This document shows positions 28,459-61,310 of a stretch of 64,000 bases of DNA, piece after piece (positions within the stretch are counted from its first letter, which is position 1; every line of letters begins with the position of its first letter). Under the pieces are notes generated by a model. The model was not told where the DNA came from. It was given only the letters and a program-made list of their open reading frames with translations, and made no database searches. A program made the translations under genes and the position numbers. The stretch comes from Eledone cirrhosa (taxonomy: Eukaryota), in the NCBI GenBank assembly GCA_964016885.1, contig OZ024744.1, positions 50,406,001-50,470,000 of the forward strand, read 5' to 3'.

Positions 28459-31008
28459 TCCTTGAATCTCAGTCATTGATGTTGGTTAACTGGAAAGTCC
28501 ATTGGATTGAATATCAAGCCACTACCTGCAGCCTCAGATATTCAGGACGTATCGGAGGGTTCTTGCTGTTCCAAGCAAGCATGCCTTTTGAAGCGTTCCA
28601 AAAAGCGTGAAGGGGCCGATTTTCTTTAACCATCCCTGGAAACTTTTGGAGATAGTCCCCAGTGCGCCTATGACAATCGGGATCACTTTGACTTCATGGC
28701 AGTTCCAGATCCTTTTCACCTCCCACTTTAGGTCCTGGTATCGGTTAATTTTCTCCCTCTCCTTCTCTTGCACTCTCGTGTCGAACGGGCAGGCCACATC
28801 CACAATCAGACACGATCTTTTTTCTTTGTCCACAACCACCAGGTCAGGTCTATTGTGTTCCAGTTTTTTGTCCGTCTGTATCCTAAAATCCCACAGCACC
28901 TTCACCTGATTGTTCTCCATCACCGCCTCTGGCCTATGCTCATACCATTTCTCAGAATGTGGTAAATTGTTTACTTTGCACAGGTGCCAGTGGATCACCC
29001 TGCCCATCACATCGTGTCTCCAGCCCTTATAGTGGGTCTGGGCTAGGTGTTTACACTCGGACACAATGTGAGCCACAGTCTCCTCTCTCTCTCCACAGAT
29101 CCTGCACAGTGGGCTAGCCTCCTCCTTGTAAATGTGATGCTTCAACCACTTCGTTTTGAGGGCCTGCTCCTGCGCAGCCATTAGCATTCCTTCTGTAGCC
29201 TTTTTGAGGTCTCCTCTTCTCAACCAGTTCCATGTCTGTGGATCTCTAAATTCAGTTTTCTCAAAGAAGGTACTATGAAGGGATTTTCCCTTAAGGCTGC
29301 TCTTCCTCCTTGATGTTATTTCCTCCTTGGACATCCCCTGGCCTACTGTCCCCTCCTTCAGTACAGTTCTGAGCATTGGCTCCTTACTATAGGTCACGTA
29401 TTTGTATAGGTTGTTTTTCTCCATCTGAACACAGTCCTCTATGCTGATAAGACCTCTTCCACCCTCAGATCTCCTTAGGTAGAGTCTATCGACATCACTC
29501 CTCTTGTGGAACATGTTGTAGATAGTCAATAGCTTCCTAGTCTTCCTATCCATTTCTTTTTGTTCAGCAACATTCCATCTCAGAATTCCCGCACTGTACC
29601 TAATAATAGACACAGCTCGGGAATTTACTGCGCTTATGGCATTTCTGCTGTTCAGATGTGACTTCAATACGCTCCTTACTCTCCGAATGTATTCAGTTCT
29701 TAACAATTCCTTCATTTTTTTGTTCTTTATGCCATCAGCCTCCAGAACGCCCAAATACTTGTATCCTTCCTCAGAGTCAATTTCCTTTATCATCTCACCT
29801 GTTGGTATCTGGATCCCGTTACTTCTGCTCAACCTACCCCTCTTCATCACAATGACTCCACATTTACCAATACCAAACTGCATACATATATCACTGCTGA
29901 AAATACGGAGAGTGTCAACAAGCACATCCAACTCCTTCTCACTTTTCCCGAAGAGCTTAAGATCGTCCATGAAGAGGAGGTGATTGATGGTAAGCTCTCC
30001 CCTTCCCAACTTGTATCCTGCTCTCACTTTTCGCAGCATAATGGTCAAGGGCATCAGGGCAAGGACAAACAACAGAGGGGACAGGCTATCTCCCTGGAAG
30101 ATACCTCTCTTGATCTTCACGCTTCCCAAGGATACTCCAGTTGATGTCAACTCTGTCTCCCAGGACCCCATACTCCTGCCTAGCAACTGTCTGATGTTAT
30201 CTGCCACCTTGAAGATCTCCAGGCTTTTGGTGATCCAGGAATGGGGCACCATGTCAAATGCCTTTCTGTAGTCTATCCATCCCATGGCAAGATCAGTGTG
30301 TCTCCTCCTGCAATTCCCCATTACCATCTTATCAATAAGCAACTGGTCCTTTGTACCACGTGACTTCTTTCGGCATCCTTTCTGTTCGTCCGGTAACAAG
30401 TTGTTTGTGTGGAGGTGATGGTAGATTTCCTCAGACACAATGCTCGTCAACAGTTTCCACATTACGGACAGACATGTGATAGGTCTATAGTTGGTAACAT
30501 CATTACCCTTGATTCGGTCTTTCATTATCAGAACTGTGGTACCTTTTGTCAACCACTCTGGCACCTCACCCGACACCAAGCAGTCATTGAACATGGCCGT
30601 CAGCTTCGGGTGGAGGGATGTTAAATGTTTAATCCAATACCCCTGCACACCATCTGGGCCTGGTGATTTCCAGTTGGTTAGTTTTTTGGCCTGCCCCTTA
30701 AGAGTTTCAACTGTGATACTCAACTCAGTTTGTTGTTGTGCCTGCTCACCGATCTCCCTCTGTACTGTCTCAATCCACCCTGCCTGGGCATTGTGTCTAA
30801 CATCCTGCTCCCATATTCCTCTCCAGAATGTTTTAGTTTGCTCCGCCCCAGGGATCAAGTCGTTGCCTCTTTCTTTCCCCTCAAGCTGTCCAAACAGCAT
30901 CTTCTGGTTGTTGTCGAACATGCGATTCTGTTTATACTGACTGACTCTGTTCTCGTATCGCCTGATTTTTGCACTCTTTGCTACAATGCGTTGCTTCAGT
31001 TCCTCTAT
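28459..31008 (-). mobile_element. R4/Dong-clade non-LTR retrotransposon (copy A1), 5'-truncated
   Basis: Uninterrupted 795-aa frame; short 3' UTR; flanked by (TAA)n on both sides. Confidence 0.95.
28534..30921 (-). CDS. RT + CCHC + restriction-like endonuclease (R4/Dong)
   Basis: [70 protein letters not shown]. Confidence 0.95.
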   Translation of the reverse strand: MFDNNQKMLFGQLEGKERGNDLIPGAEQTKTFWRGIWEQDVRHNAQAGWIETVQREIGEQAQQQTELSITVETLKGQAKKLTNWKSPGPDGVQGYWIKHLTSLHPKLTAMFNDCLVSGEVPEWLTKGTTVLIMKDRIKGNDVTNYRPITCLSVMWKLLTSIVSEEIYHHLHTNNLLPDEQKGCRKKSRGTKDQLLIDKMVMGNCRRRHTDLAMGWIDYRKAFDMVPHSWITKSLEIFKVADNIRQLLGRSMGSWETELTSTGVSLGSVKIKRGIFQGDSLSPLLFVLALMPLTIMLRKVRAGYKLGRGELTINHLLFMDDLKLFGKSEKELDVLVDTLRIFSSDICMQFGIGKCGVIVMKRGRLSRSNGIQIPTGEMIKEIDSEEGYKYLGVLEADGIKNKKMKELLRTEYIRRVRSVLKSHLNSRNAISAVNSRAVSIIRYSAGILRWNVAEQKEMDRKTRKLLTIYNMFHKRSDVDRLYLRRSEGGRGLISIEDCVQMEKNNLYKYVTYSKEPMLRTVLKEGTVGQGMSKEEITSRRKSSLKGKSLHSTFFEKTEFRDPQTWNWLRRGDLKKATEGMLMAAQEQALKTKWLKHHIYKEEASPLCRICGEREETVAHIVSECKHLAQTHYKGWRHDVMGRVIHWHLCKVNNLPHSEKWYEHRPEAVMENNQVKVLWDFRIQTDKKLEHNRPDLVVVDKEKRSCLIVDVACPFDTRVQEKEREKINRYQDLKWEVKRIWNCHEVKVIPIVIGALGTISKSFQGWLKKIGPFTLFGTLQKACLLGTARTLRYVLNI

Positions 31009-31010
31009 GA

Positions 31011-31056
<46 letters not shown>

Positions 31057-31068
31057 GTTGTTGTTCTT

Positions 31069-33440
31069 TGAGTCTCAGTCATTGATGTTAGTTAACTGGA
31101 AAGTTTGTTGAAATGAATATCAAGCCACTACCTGCAGCCTCAGATATTCAGGACGTATCAGAGGGTTCTTGCTGTTCCCAGCAAGCATGCCTTTTGAAGC
31201 GTTCCAAAAAGCGTGGCAGGGCCAATTTTCTTTAACCATCCCTGGAAACTTTTTGAGATAGTACCTAGTGCGCCTATGACAATCGGGACCACTTTGACTT
31301 CATGTCAGTTGCAAATCCTTTTTACCTCCCACTTTAAGTCCTGGTATCAGTTAATTTTCTCCCTCTCCTTCTCTTGCACTCTCGTGTCGAATTGGCAGGC
31401 CACATCCACAATCAGGCACAATCTTTTTTCCTTGTCCAAAACCACCAGGTCAGGTCTATTGTGTTCCAGTTTCTTGTCCGTCTGTATCCTAAAATCCCAC
31501 AGCACCTTCACCTGATCGTTTTCTATCACCAACTCTGGCTTATGCTCATACCACTTCTCAGAATGTGGTAAATTGTTTACTTTGCATAGGTGCCAGTGGA
31601 TCACCCTGCCCATCACATCATGTCTCCAGCCCTTATATTGAGTCTGGGCTAGGTGTTTACACTCGGATACAATGTGAGCCACAGTCTCCTCTCTCTCTCC
31701 ACAGATACTGCACAGTGAGCTAGCCTCCTCCTTGTAAATATGGTGTTTCAACCACTTCGTTTTGAGGGCCTGCTCTTGCGCAACCATTAGCATTCCTTCT
31801 GTAGCCTTTTTAAGGTCTCCTCTTTTCAACCAGTTCCATGTCTGTGGATCTCTTAATTCAGTTTTCTCAAAGAAGGTACTATGAAGGGATTTTTCATGAA
31901 GGCTGCTCTTTCTCCTTGTTATTTCCTCCTTGGACATCCCCTGGTCTATTGTCCTCTCCTTCAGTACAATTCTGAGCATTGGCTCCTTACTATCAGTCAC
32001 GTATTTGTGAAGGTTGTTTTTCTCCATCTGAACACAGTCCTCTATGCTGATAAGACCTCTTCCACCTTCAGATCTCCTTAAGTAGAGTCTATCGACATCA
32101 CTCCTCTTGTGGAACATGTTGTAGATAGTCAATAGCTTCCTAGTCTTCCTATCCATTTCTTTTTGTTCAGCAACATTCCATCTCAGAATTCCCGCACTGT
32201 ACTTAATAATAGACACAGCTCGGGAATTTACTGCACTTATGGCATTCCTCCTGTTCAGATGTGACTTTAATACGCTCCTTACTCTCCAAATGTATTCAGA
32301 TCTTATCAATTCCTTCATTTTTTTTTTTTTTGTTCTTGATGTCATCTGCCTCCAGAACACCCAGATACTTGTATCCTTCTTCAGTGTCAATTTCTTTTAT
32401 CATCTAACCTGTTGGTACCTGGATTCCGTTGCTTCTGCTCAATTTACCCCTCTTCATCACAAGGACTCCACACTTACTAATACCAAATTGCATACATATA
32501 TCATTGCTGAAAATATGGACAGTGTCAACAAGCACATCCAGCTCCTTCTCACTCTTCCCGAAGAGCTTAAGATCATCCATGAAGAGGAGGTGATTGATGG
32601 TAAGCTCTCCCTTTCCCAACTTGTATCCTGCTCTCACTTTTTGCAGTATAATGGTCAGGGGCATCAGGGCAAGGACAAACAACAGAGGAGACAGACTATC
32701 TCCCTGGAAGATACCTCTCTTGATCTTCACGCCTCCCAAGGATTCTCCAGCTGATGTTAACTCTGTTTTCCAGGACTTCATACTTTTGCCCAACAACTGT
32801 CTGATGTTATCTGCCACCTTGAAGATCTCTAGGCTTTTGGTGATCCAAGAATGAGGCACCATGTCAAATGCCTTTTTGTAGTCTATCCATCCCATGGCAA
32901 GACCAGTGTGTCTCCTCTTGCAATTCCTTATTACCATCTTATCAATAAGTAACTGGTCCTTTGTACCACGGGACTTCTTTCGGCATCCTTTCTGTTCGTC
33001 AGGTAACAAGTTGTTTGTGTGGAGGTGATGGTAGATTTCCTCAGACATAATTGTTTCTACATTTGGCACAAGGCCATCAATTACCCAGTGCATTACTGGT
33101 ACTTTATTTTATCGACCCCGTAAGGATGAAAGGCAAAGTTAATCAGACATAATGCTTGTCAACAGTTTCCACATTACGGACAGACATGTGATAGGTATAT
33201 AGTTGGTAACATCATTACCCTTGATTCGGTCTTTCATTACCAGAACTGTTGTACCTTTTGTCAATCACTCTGGTACCTCACCTGACATCAAGCAGTCATT
33301 GAACATGGTTGTCAGTTTCAGGTGGAGGGATATTATATTTTTAATCCAATACCCCTGCACACCATCTGGGCCTGGTGATTTCCAGTTGGTTAGTTTTTTG
33401 GCCTGCCCCTTAAGAGTTTCAACTGTGATACTCAACTCAG
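31069..33440 (-). mobile_element. R4/Dong copy A2, frameshifted
   Basis: Closely similar to A1 including the 3' UTR; (TAA)n at both ends; SINE insertion. Confidence 0.95.
33052..33142 (-). mobile_element. Truncated MetaSINE-like SINE inside copy A2
   Basis: TSD TCAGACATAAT (33041-33051, 33143-33153). Confidence 0.9.
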
Positions 33441-33459
33441 TATTATTATTATTATTATT

Positions 33460-46205: not shown

Positions 46206-46456
46206 GAGGGCGGTGGATTGGTATAACCGATATAGCATCGGACACCATGCTTTGAGGCTTATAGTTATGGCCCTTTATTCTGAGTTCAAATCCTACAGAG
46301 GTTAGCTTTACCTTTCATCCTTATGGGCTTGAAAAAAAGTAATAATGTATTTATTGTCTACTACAGATAAAATAAAGCAACAGTAATGCACTGGGGTCAA
46401 TTTAATCAAATATCCCCTTCTACAAAATTCCTAGCCTTGTGCCTTTAGTAGAAATC
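46206..46456 (+). mobile_element. Full-length MetaSINE-like tRNA SINE in (ATT)n
   Basis: Head GGCGGTGGATTGG, B-box GAGTTCAAATCC, ends GTAGAAATC(ATT)n. Confidence 0.85.
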
Positions 46457-46596
46457 ATTATTATTATTATTTCCATTATTATTTTTATTGCGCATTATTA
46501 CTGCTTTACCGAACACAGCCCTGTATGCCTTGGATATGAGCAGTGCAGTTTTTGCTGATGTTGTTTTTATTGTATTGATAGTACTTTTCATAGTGT

Positions 46597-49500
46597 ATGC
46601 AGTGCCTAGTAGTGTTATCTTTTGTATGCTGTATATATTTGTAAGTCCTGTGGTACTATATATAATATATATACATTACCAAATAGTGCTACCTTTTGTA
46701 TGCTGTATATATTTGTAAGTCCTGTTATACTCTATATAATATATATACGGTACCTAGTAGTGCCAACTTTTGTATGCTGTATATATTTGTAAATCCTGTG
46801 GTACTCGATATAATATATATACAGAACCTAGTAGTGCTACCTTTTGTATGCTGTATATATTTGTAAGTCTTGTTGTACTTTATATAATGTATATACAGTG
46901 CCAAGTAGTTGTATCTTTTGTATGGGGCATATATTTGTAAGTCCTGTTGTACACTATATAATATATATAAAGTAACTAGTAGTGCTATCTTTTGTATACT
47001 GTATATATTTGTAAGACCTATTGTACTCTATATAATGCATATATACAGTGCCTAGTAGTGTTATCTTTGTTATGCTGCATATATTTGTAAGTCCTGTGGT
47101 ACTCTAGATAATGAATATACAGTACCTACTAGTGCTATCTTTTGTATGCTGTATATATTTGTAAGTCCAGTTGTACTTTATATTATATATATAGAGTACC
47201 TAGTAGTGTTATCTTTTGTATGTTGTATATATTTGTAAGTCCTGTTGTACTCTATATAATATATACAGTACCTAGTAGTGCTATCTTTTGTATGCTGTAT
47301 ATATATGTAAGTCATGTAGTACACTATATAATAAATATACAGTACCTAGTAGTGCTAACCTTTGTAGGGTGTATATATTTGTAAATCCTGTGGTAATCTA
47401 TATAATATATATAGAGTGCCTAGTAGTTCTATCTTTTGTATGAGGTATATATTTGTAAGTCCTGTTGTACACTATAAAATATATATACAGTAACTAGTAG
47501 TGCTATCTTTTGTATGCTGTATATATTTCTAAGTCCTGTTCTACTATATATATAATGCATATATACAGTACCTAGTAGTGTTATCTTTTGTATGCTGTAT
47601 ATATTTGTAAGTCCTTTTGTACTCTATATAATGCATATATACAGTACCTAGTAGTGCTATCTTTTGTATGCTGTATATATTTGTAAGTCCTGTTGTACTC
47701 TATATAATGTATATATACAATACCTAGTAGTGTTATCTTTGTTATGCTGCATATATTTGTAAGTCCTATGGTACTCTAGATAATGTATATATACAATACC
47801 TAGTAGTGTTATCTTTGTTATGCTGCATATATTTGTAAGTCCTATGGTACTCTAGATAATATATATACAGTGCATAGTAATGCTATCTTTTGTATGCTGT
47901 ATATATTTGTAAGTCCTGTTGTACGTTATATAATGTATATATTCAGTACCTAGTAGTGTTATCTTTGTTATGCTGTATATATTTCTAAGTCCTGTTGTAC
48001 TCTATATAATGTATATACAGTGCCTAGTAGTGCTATCTTTTGTATGCTGTATATATTTGTAAGTCCTGTTGTACTCTATATAATGTATATAGAGTGCCTA
48101 ATAGTGCTATCTTTTGTATGGTGTACATATATTTGTAAGTCCTTTTGTACTCTATATAATATATATATACAGTACCTAGTAGTGCTACCTTTTGTATTCT
48201 GTATATATTTGTAAGCCCTGTTGTACTCTACATAATATATATAACATCTCTAGTATTGCTAGATTTTGTATGCTGTATATATTTGTAAGTCCTTTTGTAC
48301 TCTATATAATATATATACAGTATCTAGTAGTGCTATATTTTGTATGCTGTATATATTTGTAAGTCCTGTTGTACTCTATATATATAGAGTACCTAGTAAT
48401 GCTATCTTTTGTATGCTGTATATATTTGTAAGACCTGTTGTACAATACATAATATATATAACATGCCTAGTAATGCTATATTTTGTATGCTGTACATATT
48501 TGTAAGTCCTGTTATTCTCTATATAATGTATATATGCAATACCTAGTAGTGTTAACGTTTGTATGCTGTATATATTTGTAAGTCCTGTTGTACTCTATAT
48601 AATATATATAGAGTGCCTAGTAATGCTATCTTTTGTATGCTGTATATATTTGTAAGTCCTCTGTACTATATATAATGTATATATACAGTACCTAGTAGTG
48701 TTATCTTTGTTATAATGGATATATTTGTAAGTCCTGTTTTACTCTAAATAATGTATATACAGTGCATATTAGTGCTATCTTTTGTATGGTGTATATATTT
48801 TAAGTCGTGTTGTACTCTATATAATATATATACAGTACCTAGTACTGTTACCTTTGTATGGTGTATATATTTTAAGTCCTGTTGTACTCTATATAATATA
48901 TATACCATGCCTAATAATGCTATCTTTTGTGTGCTGTATATATTTGTAAGTCCTGTTGTACTCTATATAATGTATATACAGTGCATAGTAGTGCTACCTT
49001 TTGTATGCTGTATATATTTTAAGTCGTGTTGTACTCTATATAATATATATACAGTACCTAGTACTGTTACCTTTTGTATGCTGTATATAGATGTAAGTCC
49101 TGTTGAACTCTATATAATATATATACAGTACCTAGTAGTGCTATGTATTGTATGCTGTATGTTTTTGTAAGTCCTGTTGTACTCTATTATATATATACAG
49201 TACCTAGTAATGCTCTCTTTTGTATGCTGTATATATTTGTAAGTCCTGGTGTGCTCTATATAGTATATATATACATTACCTACTAGTCCTAACTTTTGTA
49301 TGCTGTATATATTTGTAAGTTCTGTTATTCTCTATATAATGTATATTTACAATACCTAGTAGTGTTAACTTTTGTATGCTGTATATATTTGTAAGTCCTG
49401 TTGTACTCTATATAATATACAGTACCTAGTAGTGTTATCTTTGTTATAATGTATATATATTTGTAAGTCCTGTTGTACTCTAAATAATGTATATACAGTG

Positions 49501-52500
49501 CATATTAGTGCTATCTTTTGTATGGTGTATATATATGTAAGTCCTGTTGTACTCTATATAATATATATACCATGCCTAATAATGCTATCTTTTGTATGCT
49601 GTATGTGTTTGAAAGTCCTGTTGTTCTCTATATAATGTAAATACAGTGCATAGTAGTGCTACCTTTTGTATGCTGTATATATTTCTAAGTCGTGTTGTAC
49701 TCTATTATATATATACAGTACCTAGTAATGCTCTCTTTTGTATGCTGTATATATTTGTAAGTCCTTTTGTACTCTATATAATATATATACAGTACCTAGT
49801 AGTGCTATCTTTTTTATGTTGTATATATTTGTAAGTCCTATTGTACTCTATATAATATATATACAGTACCTGGTAGTGTTACCTTTTGTATACTGTATAT
49901 ATTTGTACGCCCTGTGGTACTCTATATAATATATACACCATGCTTAATAATGCTAAGTTTTGTATGCTGTATATATTTGTAAGTCCTGTTGTACTCTATA
50001 TAATATATAAAACATGACTAGTAATGCTATATTTTGTATGCTGTATATATTTGTAAGTCCTGTTATTCTCTATATAATGTATATATACAATACCTAGTAG
50101 TGTTAACTTTTGTATGCTGTATATATTTGTAAGTCCTGTTGTACTCTATATAATATATATAGAGTGCCTAGTAATGCTATCTTTTGTATGCTGTATATAT
50201 TTGTAAGTCCTCTGTACTATATATAATATACAGTACCTAGTAGAGTTATCTTTGTTATAATGTATATATTTGTAAGTCCTGTTGTACTCTATATAATGTA
50301 AATCCAGTACCTAGTAGTGCTTTCTTTTGTATGTTGTATATAATTGTAACTCCTGTGTTCTTTTTGTAATATATATACAGTACCTAGTAGTGCTATCTTT
50401 TGTATGCTGTATATATTTGTAAGTCCTCTGTACTATATATAATATACAGTACGTAGTAGTGTTATCTTTGTTATAATGTATATATTTGTAAGTCCTGTTC
50501 TACTCTATATAATATATATACAGTACCTAGTAGTGCTATCTTTTGTATAGTGTATATATTTGTAAGTCCTGTGGTACTCTATACAATATATATACAATGC
50601 TTAATAATTGTTTCTACTTTTGGCACAAGGCCAGCAATTACCAGTGTATTACTGGTACTTTATTTTATCAATCCCATAAGGATGTAAAGCAAAGTTAACC
50701 TCGTCAGGAAATGCCTAATGATGCTATTTTTTGTATGGTGTATATATTTGTAAGTCCTGTTGTACTCTATATAATATATATACAGTACCTAGTAGTGCTA
50801 TCTTTTGTATGCTGTATATATTTGTAATTCCTGTGGTACTCTATATAATATATATACAGTACCTAGTAGTGCTATCTTTTGTATAGTGTATATATTTGTA
50901 AGTCCTGTTGTACTCTATATAATGTGTATACAGTGCATAGTAGTGCTATCTTTTGTATAGTGTATATATTTGTAAGTCCTGTGGTACTCTATATAATATA
51001 TATACAGTACCTAGTAGTACTACGTTTTGTATGATGTATATATTTGTATGTCCTATTGTACTCTATATAATGTGTATACAGTGCATAGTAGTGCTATCTT
51101 TTGTATGGTGTATATATTCGTAAGTCCTGTTATTCTCTATATTATATATATACAGTCCCTAGTAGTGCTACCTTTTATTTCTGTATATATTTTTAATTCC
51201 TGTTGTACTCTATATAATATATATACAATGCCTAATAATTGTTTCTACTTTTGTCACAAAGCCAGCAATTACCCAGTGTATTACTGGTACTTTATTTTAT
51301 CAACCCCATAAGGATGAAAGGCAAAGTTAACATCAGCGAGAAATGCCTAATAATGCTATCTTTTCTATGCTATATATATTTGTAAGTCCTGTTGTACTCT
51401 ATAAAATATATATACAGTACCTAGTAGTGCTATGTTTTGTATGCTGTATATATTTGTAAGTCTTTTGTTCTCTATATAATGTATATACAGTGCCTAGTAG
51501 TGCTATCTTTTGTATGCTGTATATATTTGTAAGTCCTGTTGTACTCCGTATAATATATATATAGGACTTAGTAGTGTTACCTTTTGTATACTGTATAAAT
51601 TTGTAAATCCTGTGATACTCTATATAATATATATACAGTACCTAGTAGTGCTATCTTTTGCATGCTGTATATATTTGTAAGTCCTGTTGTACTCTATATA
51701 ATATATATACAGTACCGATCGGTACTACCTTTTGTATGCTGTATATATTTGTAAGTCCTGTTGTACTGTACATAATATATATTCAGTGCCTTGTAGTGCT
51801 ATCTTTTGTATGGTGTGTATATTTGTAAGTCCTTTTGTATTCTATATAATATATATACAGTACGCAGTAATGTTACCTTTTGTATGCTGTATATATTTGT
51901 AAATCCTGTGGTACTCTATATAATATATATACAGTACCTAGTAGTGCTACCTTTTGTATGCTGTATATATTTGTAAGTCCTGTTGTACTCTATATAATAT
52001 ATATACAGTGCTTAGTAGTGCTATCTTTTGTATGCTGTATATATTTGTAAGTCTTGTTGTACTCTATATAATATATACACAGTACCTAGTAGTGTTATCT
52101 TTTGTATGCTGTATATATTCGTAAGTCCTGTTGTATGTTATATAATATATATACAGTGCCTAATAATGCTATCTTTTGTATGGTGCATATATTTGTAAGT
52201 CCTGTTGTACTCTATATAATATATATACAGTACCTAGTAGTGTTACGTGTTGTATGCTGTATATATTTGTAAGTCATGTTGTACTTTATATAATATATAT
52301 ACAGTACTTAGTAGTGCTATCTTTTGTATGCTGTATATATTTGTAAGTCCTGTTGTACTCTATATAATGTATATATTGTGCATAGTATTGCTATCTTTTG
52401 TACAGTGTATATATTTGTATGTCCTGTTATTCTCTATATCATATATATACAGTACCTAGTAGTGCTATCTTTTGTATGCTGTATATATTTGTAATTCTTG

Positions 52501-55500
52501 TTGTACTCTATATAATATATATACAATGCCTAATAATTGTTTCTACTTTTGTCACAAAGCCAGCAATTACCCAGTGTATTACTGGTACTTTATTTTATCA
52601 ACACCATAAGGATGAAAGGCAAAGTTAACCTCTGTGGGAAATGCCTAATAATGCTGTGGGAAATGCCTAATAATGCCTAATAATGTTTGGTGTATATATT
52701 TGTAAGTCCTGTTGTACTCTATATAATGTATATATAGTACCTAGTAGTGCTATCTTTTGTATGCTGTATATATGTGTAAGTCCTGTTGTTCTCTATATAA
52801 TGTATATACAGTGCCTAGTAGTGCTATCTTTTGTATGCTGTATATATGTTTAAGTCCTGTTGTACTCTATATAATGTATATACAGTGCCTAATCTTTTGT
52901 ATGTATATATTTGTAAGTCCTGTTGTTCTCTATATAATGTATATACAGTGTATAGTAGTTCTATCTTTTGTATGGTGTATATATTTGTAAGTCCTGTTGT
53001 ACTCTATATAATATATATACAGTGCCTAATAATTCTATCTTTTGTATGCTGCATATATTTGTAAGGCCTGTTCTACTCTACATAATATATATACAGTACC
53101 TAGTTGTGCTACCTTTTGTCGGCTGTATATATTTGTAGGTCATGTTGTACTCTATATAATATATATACAGTACCAATCGGTACTACCTTTTGTATGCTGT
53201 ATATATTTGTAAGTCCCATTGTACTGTACATAATATATATAGTGTATATATTCAGTGCCTTGTATGGTGTGTATATTTGTAAGTCCTTTTGTATTCTATA
53301 TAATATATATACAGTACGCAGTAATGTTACCTTTTGTATGCTGTATATATTTGTAAATCCTGTGGTACTCTATATAATATATATACAGTACCTAGTAGTG
53401 CTACCTTTTGTATGCTGTATATATTTGTAAGTCCTATGTTACTCTATATCATATATATACATTACCTACTAATGCTATCTTTTCTATACTGTATATATTT
53501 ATAAGTCCTGTTGTACTCTATATGATATATATACAATACCTGGTAGAGTTATATTTTGTATGTTGTATATATTTGTAAGTCCTGTTGTACTTTATAAAAT
53601 ATATATACAGTACCTAGTAGTGCTATCTTTTATATAGTGTATATATTTGTAAGTCCTGTGGTACTCTATATAATATATATATACAGTACCTCGTAGTGTT
53701 ATCTTTTGTATGCTGTATATATTTGTAAATCCTGTGGTACTCTATATAATATATATACAATAGCTAGTAGAGCTACCTTTTGTAGGCCGTATATATTTGT
53801 AAGTCCTGTTGTACTCTATATATTATATATACAGTACCTAGTAGTGCTATCTTTTGTATGGTGTATATATTTTTAAGTCCTGTTGTACTCCATATAATAT
53901 ATATACAGTACCTAGTAGTGTTACCTTTTGTATACTGTATATATTTGTAAATCCTATGATACTCTATATAATATATATACAGTACCTAGTAATGCTATGT
54001 TTTTATATGCTGTATATATTTGTAAGTCCTGTGGTACTCTATATAATATATATACAGTACCTATTGGTACTACCTTTTGTATGCTGTATATATTTGTAAG
54101 TCCTGTTGTACTGTACATAATATATATACAGTGCCTAATAGTGCTATCTTTTGTATGGTGTGTATATTTGTAAGTCCTGTTGTATTCTATATAATATATA
54201 TACACTGCGTAGTAATGTTACCTTTGTATGTTGTATATATTTGTAAGTCTTGTGGTACTCTATATAATATATATACAGTACCTAGTAGTGCTACGTTTTG
54301 TATGATGTATATATTTGTATGTCCTGTTGTACTCTATATAATGTATATAAAGTGCATAGTAGTGCTATATTTTGTATGGTGTATATATTTGTAAGTCTTG
54401 TTGTACTCTATATAATATATACACAGTACCTAGTAGTGTTATCTTTTGTATGCTGTATATATTTATAAGTCCTGTTGTATGCTATATAATATATATACAG
54501 TGCCTAATAATGCTATCTTTTGTATGGTGTATATAGTTGTAAGTCCTGTTGTACTCTATATCGTATATATATACAGTACCTAGTAGTGCTACCTTTTGTA
54601 TGCTGCATATATTTGTAAGTCCGATGTTAATCTATATCATCTATATACAGTACATAGTAATGCTATCTTTTGTATGCTGTATATATTTGTAAGTCCTTTT
54701 GTACTCTATATAATGTATATACAGTACATCGTAGGGTTATTTTTGTATGCTGTATATATTTGTAAGTCCTGTTGTACTGTATATAATGTATATAAAGTGC
54801 CTAGTAGTGCTATCTTTTTGTATGGTGTATATATTTGTAAGTCTTGTTGTACTCTATATAATATATACACGGTACCTAGTAGTGTTATCTTTTGTATGCT
54901 GTATATATTTGTATGTCCTGTTGTACTCTATATAATATATATCGAGTACCTAGTAGTGCTACGTTTTGTATGGTGTATATATTTGTAAGTCCTGTTATTC
55001 TCTATATAATATATATATACAGTCCCTAGTAGTGCTGCCTTTTGTATGCTGTATATATTTGTAATTCCTGTTGTACCCTATATAATATATATACAATGCC
55101 TAATAATTATTTCTTCTTTTGTCACAAAGCCAGCAATTACCCAGTGTATTACTGGTACTTTATTTTATTAACCCCATAAGGATGAAAGGCAAAGTTAACC
55201 TCGGCGGGAAATGCCTAATAATGCTATCTTTTGTATGCTGTATATATTTGTAAGTCCTGTTGTACTCTATAAAATATATATACTGTACCTAGTAGTGCTA
55301 TGTTTTGTATGCTGTATATATTTGTAAGCCCTCTTTATTCTCTATATAATGTATATACAGTGCCTAGTAGTGTTATCTTTTGTATGCTGTATATATTTGT
55401 ATGTCCTGTTGTACTCTATATAATATATATACATTACCTTGTAGTGCTGGCTTTTGTATGCTATATATATTTGTAAGTCCTGTTGTACTCTATATAATAT

Positions 55501-57093
55501 ATATACACTACCTAGTAGTGTTACCTTTTGCATGCTGTATATATTCGTAAGTCCTGTTGTACTCTATATAATATATATACAATGCTTAATAATTGTTTCT
55601 ACTTTTGTCACAAAGCCAGCAATTACCCAGTGTATTACTGTTACTTTATTTTATCAACCCCATAAGGATGAAAGGCAAAGTTAACCTCAGCGGGAAATGC
55701 CTAATAATGCTATTTTTTGTATGGTGTATATATTTGTAAGTCCTGTTGTACTCTATATAATATATATACAGTACCTAGTAGTGCTATCTTTTGTATGGTG
55801 TATATATGTGTAAGTTCTGTTGTACTCTATATAATATATATACAGTACCTAGTAGTGCTGCCTTTTGTATACTGTATATATTTGTAAATCCTGTGATACT
55901 CTATATAATATATATACAGTACCTTGTAGTGCTATCTTTTGTATGCTGTATATATTTGTAAGTCCTGTTGTACTCTATATAATGTATATACAGTGCGTAG
56001 TAGTGCTATCTTTTGTATGGTGTATATATTCGTAAGTCCTGTTGTACTGTATATAATATATATACAGTACCTAGTAGTGCTACCTTTTGTATGCTGTATA
56101 TATTTGAAAGTCCTGTGATACTTTATATAATATATATACAGTACCTAGTAGTGCTAACTTTTGTATGCTGTATATATTTGTAAGTCCTGTGGTACTCTAT
56201 ATAATATATATACTGTACCTAGTAGTGCTATCTTTTGTATGCTGTATATATTTGTAAGACCTGTTGTACTCTATATCATATATATACTGTACCTAGTAGT
56301 GCTACGTTTTGTATGCTGTATATATTTATAAGCCCTGTTGTACTCTCTATAATGTATATACAGTGCATAGTAGTGCTATCTTTTGTATGGTGTATATATT
56401 TGTAAGACCTGTTGTACTCTATATAATATATATACAGTGCCTAATAATGCTATCTTTTGTATGCTGTATATATTTGTAAGTCCTGTTCTACTCTATATAA
56501 TGTATATATACAGTACCTATTAGTTTTATCTTTGTTATGCTGTATATATTTGTAAGTCCTGTTGTTTTCTATATAATATATATACTATACCTAGTAGTGT
56601 TATCTTTTGTATGCTGTATATATTTGTAAGTCCAGTTGTACTTTATATTATATATATAGAGTACCTTGTAGTGTTACCGTTTGTATGGTGTATATATTTG
56701 TAAGTTCTGTTGTACTCTATATAATATATATACAGTGCCTAATAATCGTTTCTACTTTAGGCACAAAGCCAGCAATAACGCAGTGCATTACTGGTACTTT
56801 ATTTTATCAACCCCGTAAGGATGAAAGGCAAAATCAACCTCGGCGGGATTTGTACTCAGATCGTAAGTCCTGTTGTACTCTATATAATATATGTACAGTA
56901 CCTAGTAGTGCTACCTTTTGTATGTTTTATATATTTGTAAGTCCTGTGATAGTCTATATAATATATATATACAGTACCTAGTAGTGCTACCTTTTGTATG
57001 CTGTATATATTTGTAAGTCCTGTTGTACTCTATATAATATATATACAGTACCTAGTAGTGCTACCTTTTGTATGCTGCATATATTTGTAAGTC
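46597..57093. repeat. 74-bp tandem satellite (~130-140 units)
   Basis: Consensus CAGTACCTAGTAGTGCTATCTTTTGTATGCTGTATATATTTGTAAGTCCTGTTGTACTCTATATAATATATATA; period 74 measured between 55769 and 55843. Confidence 0.98.
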
Positions 57094-58002
57094 TTGGGGT
57101 TTGGTTATGTATTTGTCTGGGTTCTTTTTATCATTCCCTGAGCACCAATTATTATAGGTATTGTTTCTGTTTTCATCTAAGTTATTTCTATCTCTATATC
57201 TTTATATTTGGAGATTTTCTCTATTTCCTTGGAAGATATATTGTCGTCTGTGGGGATAGAGATATATATTAGAAGGCAGTTTTTCTTTGCAGTCTTTGAC
57301 CATAATATCTGGTCGGTTGGCCTTGATCTCCCTGTTTATATTGGCATATCCCAGAGAATGGTTGCTTTGTCATTCTCTGACACTTTTTCTGGTGTGTGTT
57401 TGTACCATCTTTTTGTTTTTGTTGGTATTTCATAATGCTGGCATAATTTCCAGTGTATGAAGGTGCCTGTGGATATATCCCTAGTGCTGGGCATCCAGAG
57501 ACTATGTGGTTGATAGTTTCCTCCCTATCTCCACATATTCTACAGTTACTTATAGTGCTTTGTTTCATAATGTACTTCCTTTCCATTTAGCTTTTTGGGG
57601 TATTGGCCATGTAAGGATTTCTCTTGCCATCGTTTTAACATGGTATTCTGGGTGTCAGTTTTCCATTTAAATTTTATGTCTTTCACAATTTCTGATGTTT
57701 TTTTTTTTTGTTTTGTTTTTTTCCCTTTTCTTCACAATTATCTGTTAGTCCAGTTTCTGATTTGAATTTTTCGTGCTTCTTTGAAAATCGAGAACGGTTT
57801 TTGTTTTATTCATGTTTCGTGGCTATTTGTATTAGCTTTCCTTTGTTTTTTATTAGGTATTTTTGTAGTCCTACTGTAGTTATTTTATAAGAGTTTTCTA
57901 TTTGCATAAGGCCCCTTTCTCCTTGTGTTCTTGGTAGATATAATCTTTCTAAGTCTGATTTTGGATGGTGTATTCTAAATGCGGTCATTATTTTTCTTGT
58001 TT

Positions 58003-58186
58003 GGCGGTGGATTGGCAGTATCGGTAGAGGGTCGGACACCATGCTTTCCAGCATAGTTATGTCCCTTTACGATCTGAGTTCAAATCCCGCCGAGGTTAAC
58101 TTTGCCTTTCATCCTTACGGGGTTGATAAAATAAAGTACCAGTAATGCACTGGGTAATTGCTGGCCTTGTGCCTAAAGTAGAAACA
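58003..58186 (+). mobile_element. Full-length MetaSINE-like tRNA SINE
   Basis: A-box-like TGGCAGTATCGG, B-box GAGTTCAAATCCC; 16-bp TSD ATTATTTTTCTTGTTT (57987-58002, 58187-58202). Confidence 0.92.
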
Positions 58187-59689
58187 ATTATTTTTCTTGT
58201 TTTTTTATCTATTCCAGCTAGTTCTTTTAGTGTCCAGTTCAAAATGTTAAAGCTGTAGCTCATTACTGGGATTGCTAAAGTGTTGATGCCAATCACCTTA
58301 TTCTTTGAATTTAGTTCAGTTTTGAGTATTAACCTAATTCTTCGCTAATCTTTTTTTCATCTGGGTGTGTTGAATCTTATCTAGTTCGTTGATTCCTAAG
58401 TATTTGTTTGATCTAGTTCTCTTATTTCTGTTTCTTTATCTAACATGATATTATTGCTTTTCACTAGTTTCCCTCTCGTCAGAGTTGCTTTGACACATTT
58501 TTCTAATCCAAATTCATACCTATTTATTTTGTGAATCTGTGTACAGTTTGGAGCAGTGTTTGGAGTTGTTTTTCATTTGTAACATACAGCTTTAGATCAT
58601 CTATATATAGATGATTCATTTTCCCATTGTAGCATTTATACCCTAGCCCAGTTCTGTTTAGTGTTTCAGATAGGTGTTAATACTAGGCAGAAAAGCAGTG
58701 GTGATGAGGAGTCTCCTTGAAATATGCCTCTGTTGATTGGAATAAGCTCTGTTTTTATTGTTTTATCCCTTGTTTGTATCAGCAGAATTGTTTATCATTT
58801 ACTCATGGCATGTTTCATAAATGTTGTTATTTTTGCTGATATTTTATCCATGGCTAGTGTATTGAGTATCCATGTATGGGGAACACTGACAAATGCTTTT
58901 TGGTAATCAATCCATGCCATGCTGAGGAGGGGGAGGGGCATTTTTCAGTTATGGCTTCATTTATTAACAACTGGTCTTTGTATCCATATGAGCCTCTGCA
59001 GCATCCTTTCTGTTCTTCTGGGAACAGGTTGTTTTTTTCCAGGTTTGGTTATTTTCTCTGATAGTATTGAAGTTAATGCTTCGATGGTAGTAGGCAAGCA
59101 AGTTATGGGTCTGTAATTTTGGGGCTTTGCTGTGTCATTATTTGGGGGAATCAGGGTCGTTTTCCCCTTAGTGAGAAAGTCAGGTTTTTTTTCTGGTTCT
59201 ATGAGAATTTCGTTAAATTTCTTTGCAAGCATGTGTCCCTGTTAGATATTTTAACCAGGAGTTAGGGATCTTGTCATGTCCTGGTACCTTCCAGTTGCTT
59301 ACCCCTTTCAGTGTGATAGACACACCATCTGCTATAATATCCTCCCATAGTTGTTCGTCTGCTATGTTTGCTGTTCTTGCTAGCTTTGTGCATGGTAATT
59401 TCTTTTCCCCTTCTGTTCATATTCTTCTCCAGAACTCTTCCAATTCTTTTTACTGTTGGGTCTACAATAACTTCTATTTTGTTTCTATTAAGTTTCCGGT
59501 AGAGTCGTTTCGGATTGGAGTGAAACAGCTGATATTGTTGAAAAAACTTTTGGCACTTTTCATATCTTTGGATTCTTTGTGCCTTTACCAGTATTTATTG
59601 TTTTAGGCTTTTCTTATTGTTTGGGATTTCCCTTTCTGTTATATTGTATTTTTTTCCCTATTCTTTAGTTTTATTATCATTATTGTTTT

Positions 59690-59780
59690 ATTTTACACAA
59701 AAAACCTACACTGTGTCATCCTGTACCATCTTTAATGTTTCCTTCATGTGATCACTGCATGGCTAATAAAGAATTTATTG
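59690..59780 (+). mobile_element. Remnant Tx1 3' terminus
   Basis: CCTGTACCATCTTTAATGTTT..GGCTAATAAAGAATTTATT resembles the tails at 40260-40330 and 36200-36280. Confidence 0.6.
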
Positions 59781-59869
59781 TTTGTATGTGGTGGATTTCT
59801 TGTGGATTTGATCCAATAATTTTGTTATTTTTACCTGTTTAATACATTTGTTTTGATATAATTTTTGTA

Positions 59870-61310
59870 GCAAAGGGACATAAGGCCTTTTTTCCCTCAG
59901 AATTTAAAATTCAAATATTTGAATTTTATATTCTAAATGTTTGGTGACGATGGCTTCAGTACTGTTGGCATTGATCTGTTCAAGGACTGCAAGGTTTGAT
60001 GCTCATAATTGATCAAAATGTCTGTTGCAATTGTTCTTGCTTTCAGATATCCTGGCAGTACAAGGTTCATATTTCACAATTATAAAGTTGGAAACAACCA
60101 TGGCTGGATACACCATGTGCTTTGTTTGTAGTTTCAGGAAAAACACATTAGAAGGGTTTTCCAAGTGACATGGGCAGCTCAGATCCTGTTTCCGATGTCT
60201 TTTTGATGGTTTCATTGAGTGGAGAGGATGCTACCGAGGTATTAGAACTGGTCTAATTGTTCCAGTGGTGTATTGGAGATGGTGATGTTGAAATCTGGAA
60301 GGGTTGAGTTTGGAGCAGGTTGTGCAAGTATTTTTGTCCTACCGATGTTGATTGTCAGACCAAAGTGATCATATGCATTTTTGAAGTTGATAACTGATTC
60401 CTACATTTATTCAGATGATTGAGCTGATGAGCATTGCAGTCCGCATATTGTAGTTCAGTGATACAAACTTGTTGGTCTGTCTTTATGATCAGAGTCAGAG
60501 CAGATTGTAGTGCTCACCATTGAAGTGGTACTTGATCATTACACCAGAGTTGGTAAGTAGAATTGAGAAGTCTTCTGATATATTTGTTTGGACATGTAAC
60601 CCATCCTACTATGTTGCCTTGGAGTGCCTGGATAAGAACCACAAAACAATCAGGGCCACCAAATCATAGAAGTCAAGCAAGAAAAGTTGTTTTTTATGTT
60701 TTTTTTTTTTTTATTAATCTCTGTATTTTTCCTGCACAGAAAATCATGTTAATTGTTCCTCTGGAGACTCAAAATCCACACTGAGATTCTGGTAACACTT
60801 TCTCTGAGAAGACTAGAAGACAGTTGAGCAGTATTCTGGCAACACTTTCTCTGAGAAGACTAGAAGACAGTTGAGCAATATTCTGGTAACACTTTCTCTG
60901 AGAAAACCAGGAGACAGTTGAGCAGTATTTTGGCAACACTTTCTCTGGGAAGACCAAGAGACAATTGAGCAGTATTCTAGCAATGCTTTCTATGAGAAGA
61001 CCAGGAGACGTTTGAGCAGTATTCTGGCAACACTTTCAATGAGAAGACGAGGAGACAATTGAGCAGTATTCTGGCAAAAATGCACCCTAAGATAGAGTGG
61101 AGGGATATGCCACAGTAGTTTCCACAAATGCTGTGAACTCCTTTCTTAAAGATTGTAATAATAAGGGCATTCTTTAGCTCTGCAGATACTATTTGAGTTC
61201 CCCATATTCTTAGGATGAGATTGTATAGTTTTATTCTTAAAGACTGACTACCATTTTGGATGAACTCCAAGAGGATGTTGTCTGGACCATGTAGTTTTTT
61301 GGGTTTATGA
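59870..61310 (-). mobile_element. BovB-like RTE LINE, decayed
   Basis: GPDNI, TIFKKG, GISLHSILG.IFARILLN, PESQCGF. Confidence 0.75.
60786..61077. repeat. 47-bp minisatellite (~6 copies) inside the RTE RT coding region
   Basis: Unit ATTCTGGCAACACTTTCTCTGAGAAGACTAGAAGACAGTTGAGCAGT at 60786, 60833, 60880, 60927, 60974, 61021. Confidence 0.95.

What the first reader, a model, noticed from the sequence alone, without database searches (positions are those of the whole stretch)
46490..57200. 10.5-kb satellite born in place from the last codons of an R4/Dong retrotransposon ORF
Seen: the reverse complement of the 74-bp unit translates as (T)GLTNIYSIQKIALLGTVYILYRV. This matches the C-terminus of the R4/Dong ORFs in this window (IQKIVLMGTAHILRKILSI and LQKACLLGTARTLRYVLNI). 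The array is continuous with its parent. On the right, the element reads EKISKYKDIEIE..ETIPIIIGAQGMIK and runs directly into the first unit at 57093. On the left, the last unit continues into KVLSIQ* (stop at ~46567-46569), a 3' UTR and (TAA)n. So ~130-140 copies of one coding segment sit inside one LINE, about 100 nt from the 3' end where reverse transcription starts. Inference: the seed could be reiterative (telomerase-like) template re-use by the RT, or DNA-level slippage followed by unequal exchange. 74 is not a multiple of 3, so this is not a repeat protein.
Basis: partly seen in the sequence, partly recalled or inferred. Interest (0 to 1): 0.88.

Follow-up and report, generated by a model that had tools for sequence, protein, structure and literature searches.

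The report
Minisatellite spreading between retrotransposon copies
This 10.5-kb repeat is real but not a one-off: the same 74-bp piece of a decayed retrotransposon's gene end is tandemly repeated inside more than 60 copies of that retrotransposon, almost only on small chromosomes and chromosome ends, and it likely spread and grew by DNA recombination rather than by a stuttering reverse transcriptase.

Summary
Observation confirmed: 133 units of 74 bp (46570-57094, minus strand) replace the last codons of one decayed RT+RLE (R4/Dong-type) LINE and are continuous with it on both sides. 'Born in place' is wrong. The same unit, same phase and same LINE flanks occur at more than 60 inspected loci (about 2,000 units genome-wide), from 2 to about 335 units; array-free parent copies are the majority. 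Internal units carry 8 changes absent from the parent, which create a hairpin, so an RT re-copying the parent template cannot have made them. Growth is DNA-level: one SINE was duplicated five times inside this array, and three segmental duplicates hold 11, 21 and 23 units. Neighbouring arrays in unrelated LINE copies share rare unit variants (0 of 5,000 shuffles), and units are about half as diverged as their hosts. LINE-flanked arrays are missing from four giant chromosomes (54% of the genome, 45 of 86 parent hits). Best reading: one founding duplication, then ectopic conversion into resident LINE copies plus unequal exchange (0.5). Main rival: a short-array subfamily retrotransposed first (0.35). 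New variant of known TE-derived satellites.

The parts
57095..59782 (-). 5'-truncated, decayed host LINE body (family C): RT, CCHC and restriction-like endonuclease pieces with stops, frameshifts and private 14-bp and about 117-bp deletions
   Evidence: tblastn pieces 28-41% identical to the intact 1141-aa sister ORF; homology to other copies reaches about 59,780
58003..58193 (+). SINE inserted in the host LINE body
46649..57094 (-). 132 internal 74-bp units, derived (hairpin) type; about 7-8% diverged from the consensus; block duplications at 12, 18 and 30 units
56741..56866 (-). SINE fragment in unit 4, a separate copy (11-13 differences in 108 from the other five), ending at the same target position
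55588..55695 (-). SINE fragment, copy 1 of 5 of one insertion with a 13-bp target-site duplication
55102..55209 (-). same SINE fragment, copy 2 of 5
52532..52639 (-). same SINE fragment, copy 3 of 5
51234..51341 (-). same SINE fragment, copy 4 of 5
50603..50709 (-). same SINE fragment, copy 5 of 5
46570..46648 (-). last unit, mostly parent type, encoding ..LLGTA..KVLSIQ
46567..46569 (-). ORF stop codon (TAA)
46491..46566 (-). family-C 3' UTR
   Evidence: 89% to an array-free copy over last unit plus UTR
46456..46490 (-). (TAA)n-type tail, shared tail-to-tail with a + strand SINE at about 46209-46460; no target-site duplication readable

Best explanation
The array is one member of a dispersed minisatellite family made from a 74-bp duplication of the LINE's last codons, and it likely spread by ectopic DNA recombination into resident copies of the same LINE and likely grew there by unequal exchange. 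Shown: one unit type and one junction at all loci; 8 clustered changes that turn a weak inverted repeat into an 11-of-12-bp AT-rich hairpin; unit number changing after insertion; unit variants shared between neighbouring arrays in unrelated hosts. Inferred: the duplication happened once. The 44 bp of unit identical to the parent, plus the LINE flanks, give homology to every array-free copy. A break in such a copy is repaired from an array-bearing donor and brings the array in phase. The hairpin is predicted to promote stalling and breakage. The restriction to small chromosomes and chromosome ends would reflect where such exchange occurs. The window's array is an old, isolated member.
For: (1) Arrays are not a clade on flank trees: 15 label changes against a null of 19, a weak grouping only; long array-bearing copies fall in different weak groups. 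(2) The window's host shares a private 14-bp deletion with an array-free copy 270 kb away, the only other carrier among the loci then held. (3) Arrays under 1.5 Mb apart share rare unit variants: 0.225 against 0.054+-0.025, 0 of 5,000 shuffles, 54 arrays, 15 pairs, segmental duplicates dropped; sharing falls with distance. Clean cases have 0 shared rare flank variants: L184/L185 (a 9-nt-deleted unit found only there), L038/L056, L038/L046. (4) Units diverge 2.7% from the global unit against 5.1% for their own flanks, 28 of 33 loci, p=3.5e-6. (5) 35 of 44 arrays keep a contiguous 5' flank; about 1 would if the whole array had been in the RNA at the loss rate of array-free copies. (6) One SINE is present five times; three segmental duplicates, 94-96% identical over kilobases, hold 11, 21 and 23 units. 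(7) Arrays in 0 of 32 copies on C1-C7 against 8 of 30 on C8-C27, and 0 of 45 on C1-C4 against 11 of 31 in a second sample. On C5-C11, 19 of 19 arrays lie within 16 Mb of an end against 4 of 21 array-free copies. (8) Last units switch from derived to parent type at varying points; parent-to-derived first units occur in L216, L170 and L266. (9) Unit folds at -7.4 against -0.4 kcal/mol for the parent; 8-22 of 1,000 random mutants do as well.
Against: No pair was found with shared non-LINE flanks in which one copy has an array and the other not; invasion of an empty copy is inferred, not seen. Array hosts are enriched for three flank alleles (17 of 20, 23 of 37, 34 of 39), as a subfamily would be. 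Near pairs share slightly more rare flank variants than chance (8 of 3,000 shuffles, mostly L046/L056). The window's units are as diverged as their host (8% against 6%), so the finished unit existed about when the family was active. One array-free sample (22 best BLAST hits) is only 2.5% diverged over the same 22 bases, like the units. The window's sibling could be a collapsed array. The ends of C1-C4 and C7 also lack arrays, the window's own locus lies 50 Mb inside C28, and one single derived unit lies 20.7 Mb from an end of C8. The hairpin could be a by-product of drift toward (TA)n and CpG decay.
Confidence: 0.5

Rival explanations
1. A subfamily that already carried a short (2-4 unit) array, with an intact 3' UTR, was retrotransposed in trans to many sites, like a VNTR-bearing retroposon. 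The arrays then grew by unequal exchange and were homogenised between neighbours. It differs from the best explanation only in how arrays first reached each locus, and both may have acted.
For: Flank-allele enrichment; weak grouping on the flank tree, 17 of 1,000 shuffles; 2-4-unit forms exist (L215, L231, L232, L170, L199); six arrays start inside a unit with no 5' flank in the fetched stretch; the window's array is about as old as its host; one unit fragment sits orphaned next to another element on C4.
Against: Short seeds should also lie on C1-C4, yet 1 of 1,317 junction hits and 1 of 1,142 hairpin-arm hits do, both orphans without LINE flanks, while array-type flank alleles occur there in array-free copies (6 of 34). 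The window's host has the other alleles at two of the three sites and an array-free sibling.
Confidence: 0.35
2. The reverse transcriptase reiterated a template segment during each insertion, telomerase-like, so that arrays were written at full or near-full length at birth.
For: Same phase at all loci, about 100-170 nt from the 3' end; no arrays of 2-7 units in the first unbiased sample; survival of 5' flanks is also compatible.
Against: Units differ from the parent template at 8 shared sites, are younger than their hosts, share variants with neighbours, change number after segmental duplication and are missing from 54% of the genome. RT slippage remains possible for the single founding duplication, which these data cannot test.
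Confidence: 0.07
3. Arrays were once genome-wide and collapsed without trace to one parent-type segment on the giant chromosomes, since exchange between first and last unit restores the parent.
For: The architecture allows traceless collapse; the array-free sibling of the window's host fits.
Against: Varying switch points predict derived-type scars; the hairpin-arm search found 1 orphan hit on C1-C4. Array-type flank alleles are rarer, not equal, on C1-C4.
Confidence: 0.08

Closest known systems
Rsp-like satellite invading 1.688 clusters on the Drosophila simulans/mauritiana X (PMC7403614; passages read)
   Same: A rarer repeat appears at many loci inside a commoner pre-existing repeat with shared junctions; interlocus gene conversion or eccDNA reintegration, then unequal exchange, is proposed.
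   Different: There the landing sites are an unrelated satellite joined by 4-7 bp microhomology. Here they are copies of the repeat's own parent LINE, with 44 bp of identity plus flanks, and phase is kept.
Ogre LTR-retrotransposon 3' UTR tandem repeats expanding into satellites in Lathyrus sativus (PMC7004042; passages read)
   Same: Short arrays inside many element copies, a few expanded to many kilobases.
   Different: LTR element, non-coding origin, short arrays carried by the element throughout the genome. Here a non-LTR coding end, most copies array-free, and arrays excluded from four chromosomes.
LINE-derived satellites: cetacean L1 3' satellite, chicken CR1 HinfI, Phodopus PROsat; Helitron central tandem repeats (listed in PMC9659126 and PMC6947457; passages read)
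   Same: A tandem unit built from part of a TE, including ORF2 pieces.
   Different: As listed, the LINE cases are free satellites resembling a LINE piece, not arrays held in phase inside dozens of LINE copies; the passages seen name no RLE-clade case.
SVA/LAVA VNTR retroposons (PMC4432496; search listing only) and AT-rich hairpin minisatellites such as FRA16B (PMC2875025; listing only)
   Same: A variable array inside a retroposed element; an AT-rich unit able to fold back (details recalled).
   Different: SVA's array is part of nearly every copy and unrelated to its ORF; FRA16B is a single locus with no TE origin claimed (recalled).

Membership tests
RLE-type non-LTR retrotransposon (host) | Reverse transcriptase domain | tested here: met
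   PF00078 E=8.6e-23 on the intact sister ORF, best PDB hits R2 proteins; host pieces align to its RT region at 30-41%
RLE-type non-LTR retrotransposon (host) | C-terminal CCHC finger and PD-(D/E)xK restriction-like endonuclease | tested here: met
   CRICG..HIVSGC and RPDI..D..K motifs in the host translation; family-C piece aligns to the sister C-terminus at E=4e-25, which aligns weakly to the R2 C-terminal region
R4/Dong clade | (TAA)n tail and target | tested here: met
   Tail at 46456-46490 and after most copies; Dong's TAA context seen in PMC3774820 passages
R4/Dong clade | Placement with R4 and Dong on an RT tree | not tested
   No R4 or Dong reference was fetched; the label rests on recalled likeness
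TE-derived tandem repeat | Unit aligns to a TE segment and arrays stay flanked by the TE | tested here: met
   62 of 70 positions equal the parent; 44 of 44 arrays keep a family flank; exceptions L253, L214, L246
Concertedly evolving satellite | Interlocus homogenisation and higher-order duplications | tested here: met
VNTR composite retroposon (SVA-like) | Array carried in the retrotransposed RNA; hosts form one subfamily | tested here: inconclusive
   Full-length arrays in RNA disfavoured; a short seed is not excluded; flanks enriched for some alleles but not a clade
Telomerase-like reiterative RT product | Repeats identical to the template and as old as the insertion | tested here: not met
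   8 shared non-template changes; units younger than hosts
Centromeric satellite | Large arrays on every chromosome | tested here: not met
   About 2,000 units in all, dispersed, no LINE-flanked array on C1-C4
Centromeric satellite | CENP-A binding | not testable with these tools
   no chromatin data

The most novel reading that the evidence does not exclude
A protein-free 'homing' minisatellite: a hairpin-perfected piece of a dead LINE that copies itself, in phase, into array-free copies of its own parent during break repair, and whose presence maps the recombination-active part of the genome, leaving four 400-Mb chromosomes untouched.
Probability: 0.4. Interest if true: 0.75.

Novelty: new variant of a known kind. 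Interest (0 to 1): 0.55.

Why it matters
Each array sits between datable, independently inserted LINE flanks, and hundreds of array-free copies serve as controls. The donor-to-host transfer, the array growth and the stepwise change of the unit can therefore be read separately, which is rarely possible for satellites. It makes an open question testable: whether new satellite loci arise by retrotransposition, gene conversion or eccDNA. The near all-or-none absence from four giant chromosomes suggests a sharp split in recombination or nuclear compartment in this genome. No host function is indicated.

Tried and rejected
Single-locus origin: rejected. Assembly artefact: unlikely, since units are about 8% diverged with nested variants and the unit region occurs in other runs; no run spans the array. 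Repeat protein: rejected for the window; one 72-bp variant elsewhere is in frame, probably by chance. Segmental duplication of the window's host with its sibling: no shared non-repeat flank in 30 kb, and they differ at 40 of 419 sites against a median of 11%. A search for mixed array/empty duplicate pairs among fetched loci found none (3' flanks only). Read-laying could not isolate the orthologous locus. No RNA holder was listed, which says nothing on expression. No young family-C copy turned up: non-self hits were 67-91% identical to the window's copy. Flank trees are star-like and underpowered; one tree run timed out. The one-mismatch junction search listed exact hits first, so diverged arrays on C1-C4 are not excluded by it. 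L173 was a false two-unit call and was dropped. Target-site duplications of the host could not be read inside the TAA run. Earlier-findings look-ups returned nothing.
Full report
Observation. The window holds a period-74 array at 46596-57093 that resolves into 133 units on the minus strand. Upstream lies about 2.7 kb of a decayed, 5'-truncated LINE with RT, CCHC and restriction-like endonuclease pieces; it runs into the first unit. The last unit runs into KVLSIQ*, a short 3' UTR and a TAA-type tail. An intact 1141-aa sister ORF from another locus hits PF00078 and R2 structures, and a family-C piece aligns to its C-terminus. The R4/Dong label, and my impression that the genome is an octopod's, are recalled likenesses and were not tested by tree.

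The array is not unique. A DNA search with three units returned arrays on many chromosomes. I inspected 67 loci with tandem derived units, counting the window and three segmental duplicates. Of 44 found by unit or junction searches, 35 keep a contiguous 5' LINE flank, 39 the 3' end, and all 44 at least one. The 5' ends differ from locus to locus. Sizes run from 2 units to about 335 (25 kb on C26), so the window's array is not the largest. A 21-base junction motif has 1,317 exact and 1,986 one-mismatch hits; 555 of 796 junctions outside the window match exactly, which gives roughly 2,000 units at an estimated 100 or so loci. Array-free copies with one parent segment are the majority.

The unit is not the template. 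Positions 1-44 equal the parent. Eight changes fall within 21 bases (chance 0.0003) and create an 11-of-12-bp hairpin, -7.4 against -0.4 kcal/mol with DNA parameters; 8, 22 and 15 of 1,000 random mutants under three nulls do as well. Seven of the eight improve pairing in one of two inverted repeats (read from the sequence), which suggests palindrome-correcting template switches, though drift to (TA)n and CpG decay could contribute. The changes also break the GTA..LR motif shared with both sister families, which argues against an autonomous array-bearing master. First units are nearly always derived; last units switch from derived to parent at varying points. Part-derived unit types exist at a few loci.

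Growth was at the DNA level. In the window one SINE fragment with a 13-bp target-site duplication occurs five times, 3-10 differences in 108 apart, and 10 unit pairs share three or more rare variants against a shuffled maximum of 2. Three segmental duplicates on C13 hold 11, 21 and 23 units. Array-free copies lose their 5' part at about 0.005 per base; had whole arrays been in the RNA, about 1 of 44 would keep a 5' flank, yet 35 do, with extents like those of array-free copies. Some apparent 5' ends may be later insertions, but arrays would then be younger than flanks, which points the same way.

Units move between loci. Among 54 arrays (segmental duplicates and the six commonest variable sites dropped), the 15 pairs under 1.5 Mb apart share rare variants at 0.225 against 0.054, 0 of 5,000 shuffles, and the result holds without the C6 trio. 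Sharing is 0.24 below 0.6 Mb, 0.12 at 1.5-6 Mb and 0.04 between chromosomes. These pairs share no non-repeat flank and their LINE flanks are no closer than average (0.138 against 0.124), although they share slightly more rare flank variants (8 of 3,000 shuffles), mostly in one pair. Units lie 2.7% from the global unit while their own flanks lie 5.1% from the family majority (28 of 33 loci). Over the same 22 bases, motif-picked array-free copies show 5.9% and arrays about 3%, but a best-hit sample of array-free copies shows only 2.5%. The window's array is the exception at 8%, with its own near-fixed variant, as expected for an old member cut off from exchange.

Distribution. C1-C4 make up 54% of the genome and hold 45 of 86 exact parent-end hits, but 1 of 1,317 junction hits and 1 of 1,142 hairpin-arm hits, both orphan fragments. 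Copies picked by the entry motif carry arrays in 0 of 32 cases on C1-C7 and 8 of 30 on C8-C27 (p=0.0017). Copies picked by the parent 3' motif do so in 0 of 45 on C1-C4 and 11 of 31 on C8-C27; the C1-C4 rows and two small-chromosome rows were scored from the absence of nearby junction hits, not all fetched. On C5-C11 all 19 arrays lie within 16 Mb of an end against 4 of 21 array-free copies; these loci cluster and are not independent. Exact-match searches can miss diverged arrays. The window's locus, 50 Mb inside C28, breaks the rule; 0 of 9 other C28 copies seen have arrays.

How arrays reached each host is the open step. For conversion into resident copies: no clade on flank trees; an array-free sibling sharing the host's private 14-bp deletion; parent-to-derived first units; younger units; no short seeds on C1-C4. 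For a retrotransposed short-array subfamily: three enriched flank alleles, which are also enriched in array-free copies on small chromosomes; 2-4-unit forms; the age of the window's array. I put these at 0.5 and 0.35. What they share, DNA-level growth with exchange between loci, is about 0.85. RT reiteration as the source of array length is 0.07; whether the single founding duplication was an RT slip cannot be told.

Literature. Closest are Rsp-like repeats invading 1.688 clusters (PMC7403614, passages) and Ogre-derived satellites (PMC7004042, passages). Reviews list L1-, CR1- and Helitron-derived repeats (PMC6947457, PMC9659126, passages). An Octopus vulgaris repeat annotation reports recently active Dong-R4 families and has no occurrence of 'satellite' as a word start in its main text (PMC13282606, first third and passages); its supplement, which I did not open, could list this repeat. 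PMC3774820 was read in passages; PMC4432496 and PMC2875025 were seen as listings only. Nine searches showed no description of this repeat or of a satellite held inside RLE-type LINE copies; the library lacks most subscription journals.

Verdict. A real and well-defined feature, a new variant of TE-derived tandem repeats, interest 0.55.

Noticed in passing
window 28537-33441 (minus strand): Two adjacent copies of the sister family ending LLGTARTLRYVLNI; one is 98% identical over 827 aa to the intact 1141-aa ORF of L189, so that family is recent or active.
   Followed up: partly
L189:6376-9798 (minus strand): Intact 1141-aa RT+CCHC+RLE reading frame.
   Followed up: partly
L183 (G000 C5, about 131.49 Mb): Twelve units of a 72-bp variant with no substitutions; being a multiple of 3 it gives a 319-aa open repeat frame, probably by chance.
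   Followed up: no
L051, L197, L218, L219 (G000 C26, about 22.083-22.109 Mb): Largest array seen, about 25 kb and 335 units, with the parent 3' end beyond a later insertion.
   Followed up: partly
L266 (G000 C18, about 36.97 Mb): Array of 14 half-parent, half-derived units with private fixed variants, as if a hybrid unit formed and was amplified at that host.
   Followed up: partly
L246:1480-1545 and L214:2820-3030: Orphan unit fragments on C4 and C1 without LINE flanks; the C4 one abuts what looks like another retroelement (recalled likeness, untested).
   Followed up: partly
L228 (G000 C22, about 0.305 Mb): Parent-type 3' end of family C repeated at about 200-bp spacing, a different tandem from the 74-bp one.
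   Followed up: no
window 46209-46490 and many related loci: The SINE's (ATT)n tail and the LINE's (TAA)n tail meet tail-to-tail in one microsatellite run; both SINE insertions in the array end at a unit variant holding an ATT run.
   Followed up: partly
L033, L047, L060: Arrays interrupted in the TA-rich stretch by elements whose ends look Helitron-like (recalled motif, untested).
   Followed up: no
window 60786-61077: 47-bp tandem repeat, 6.2 copies, outside the host LINE.
   Followed up: no
array-free family-C copies: Flank alleles at -175, -12 and +111 differ in frequency between C1-C4 and small chromosomes even without arrays, hinting at different subfamily histories by chromosome class.
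   Followed up: partly
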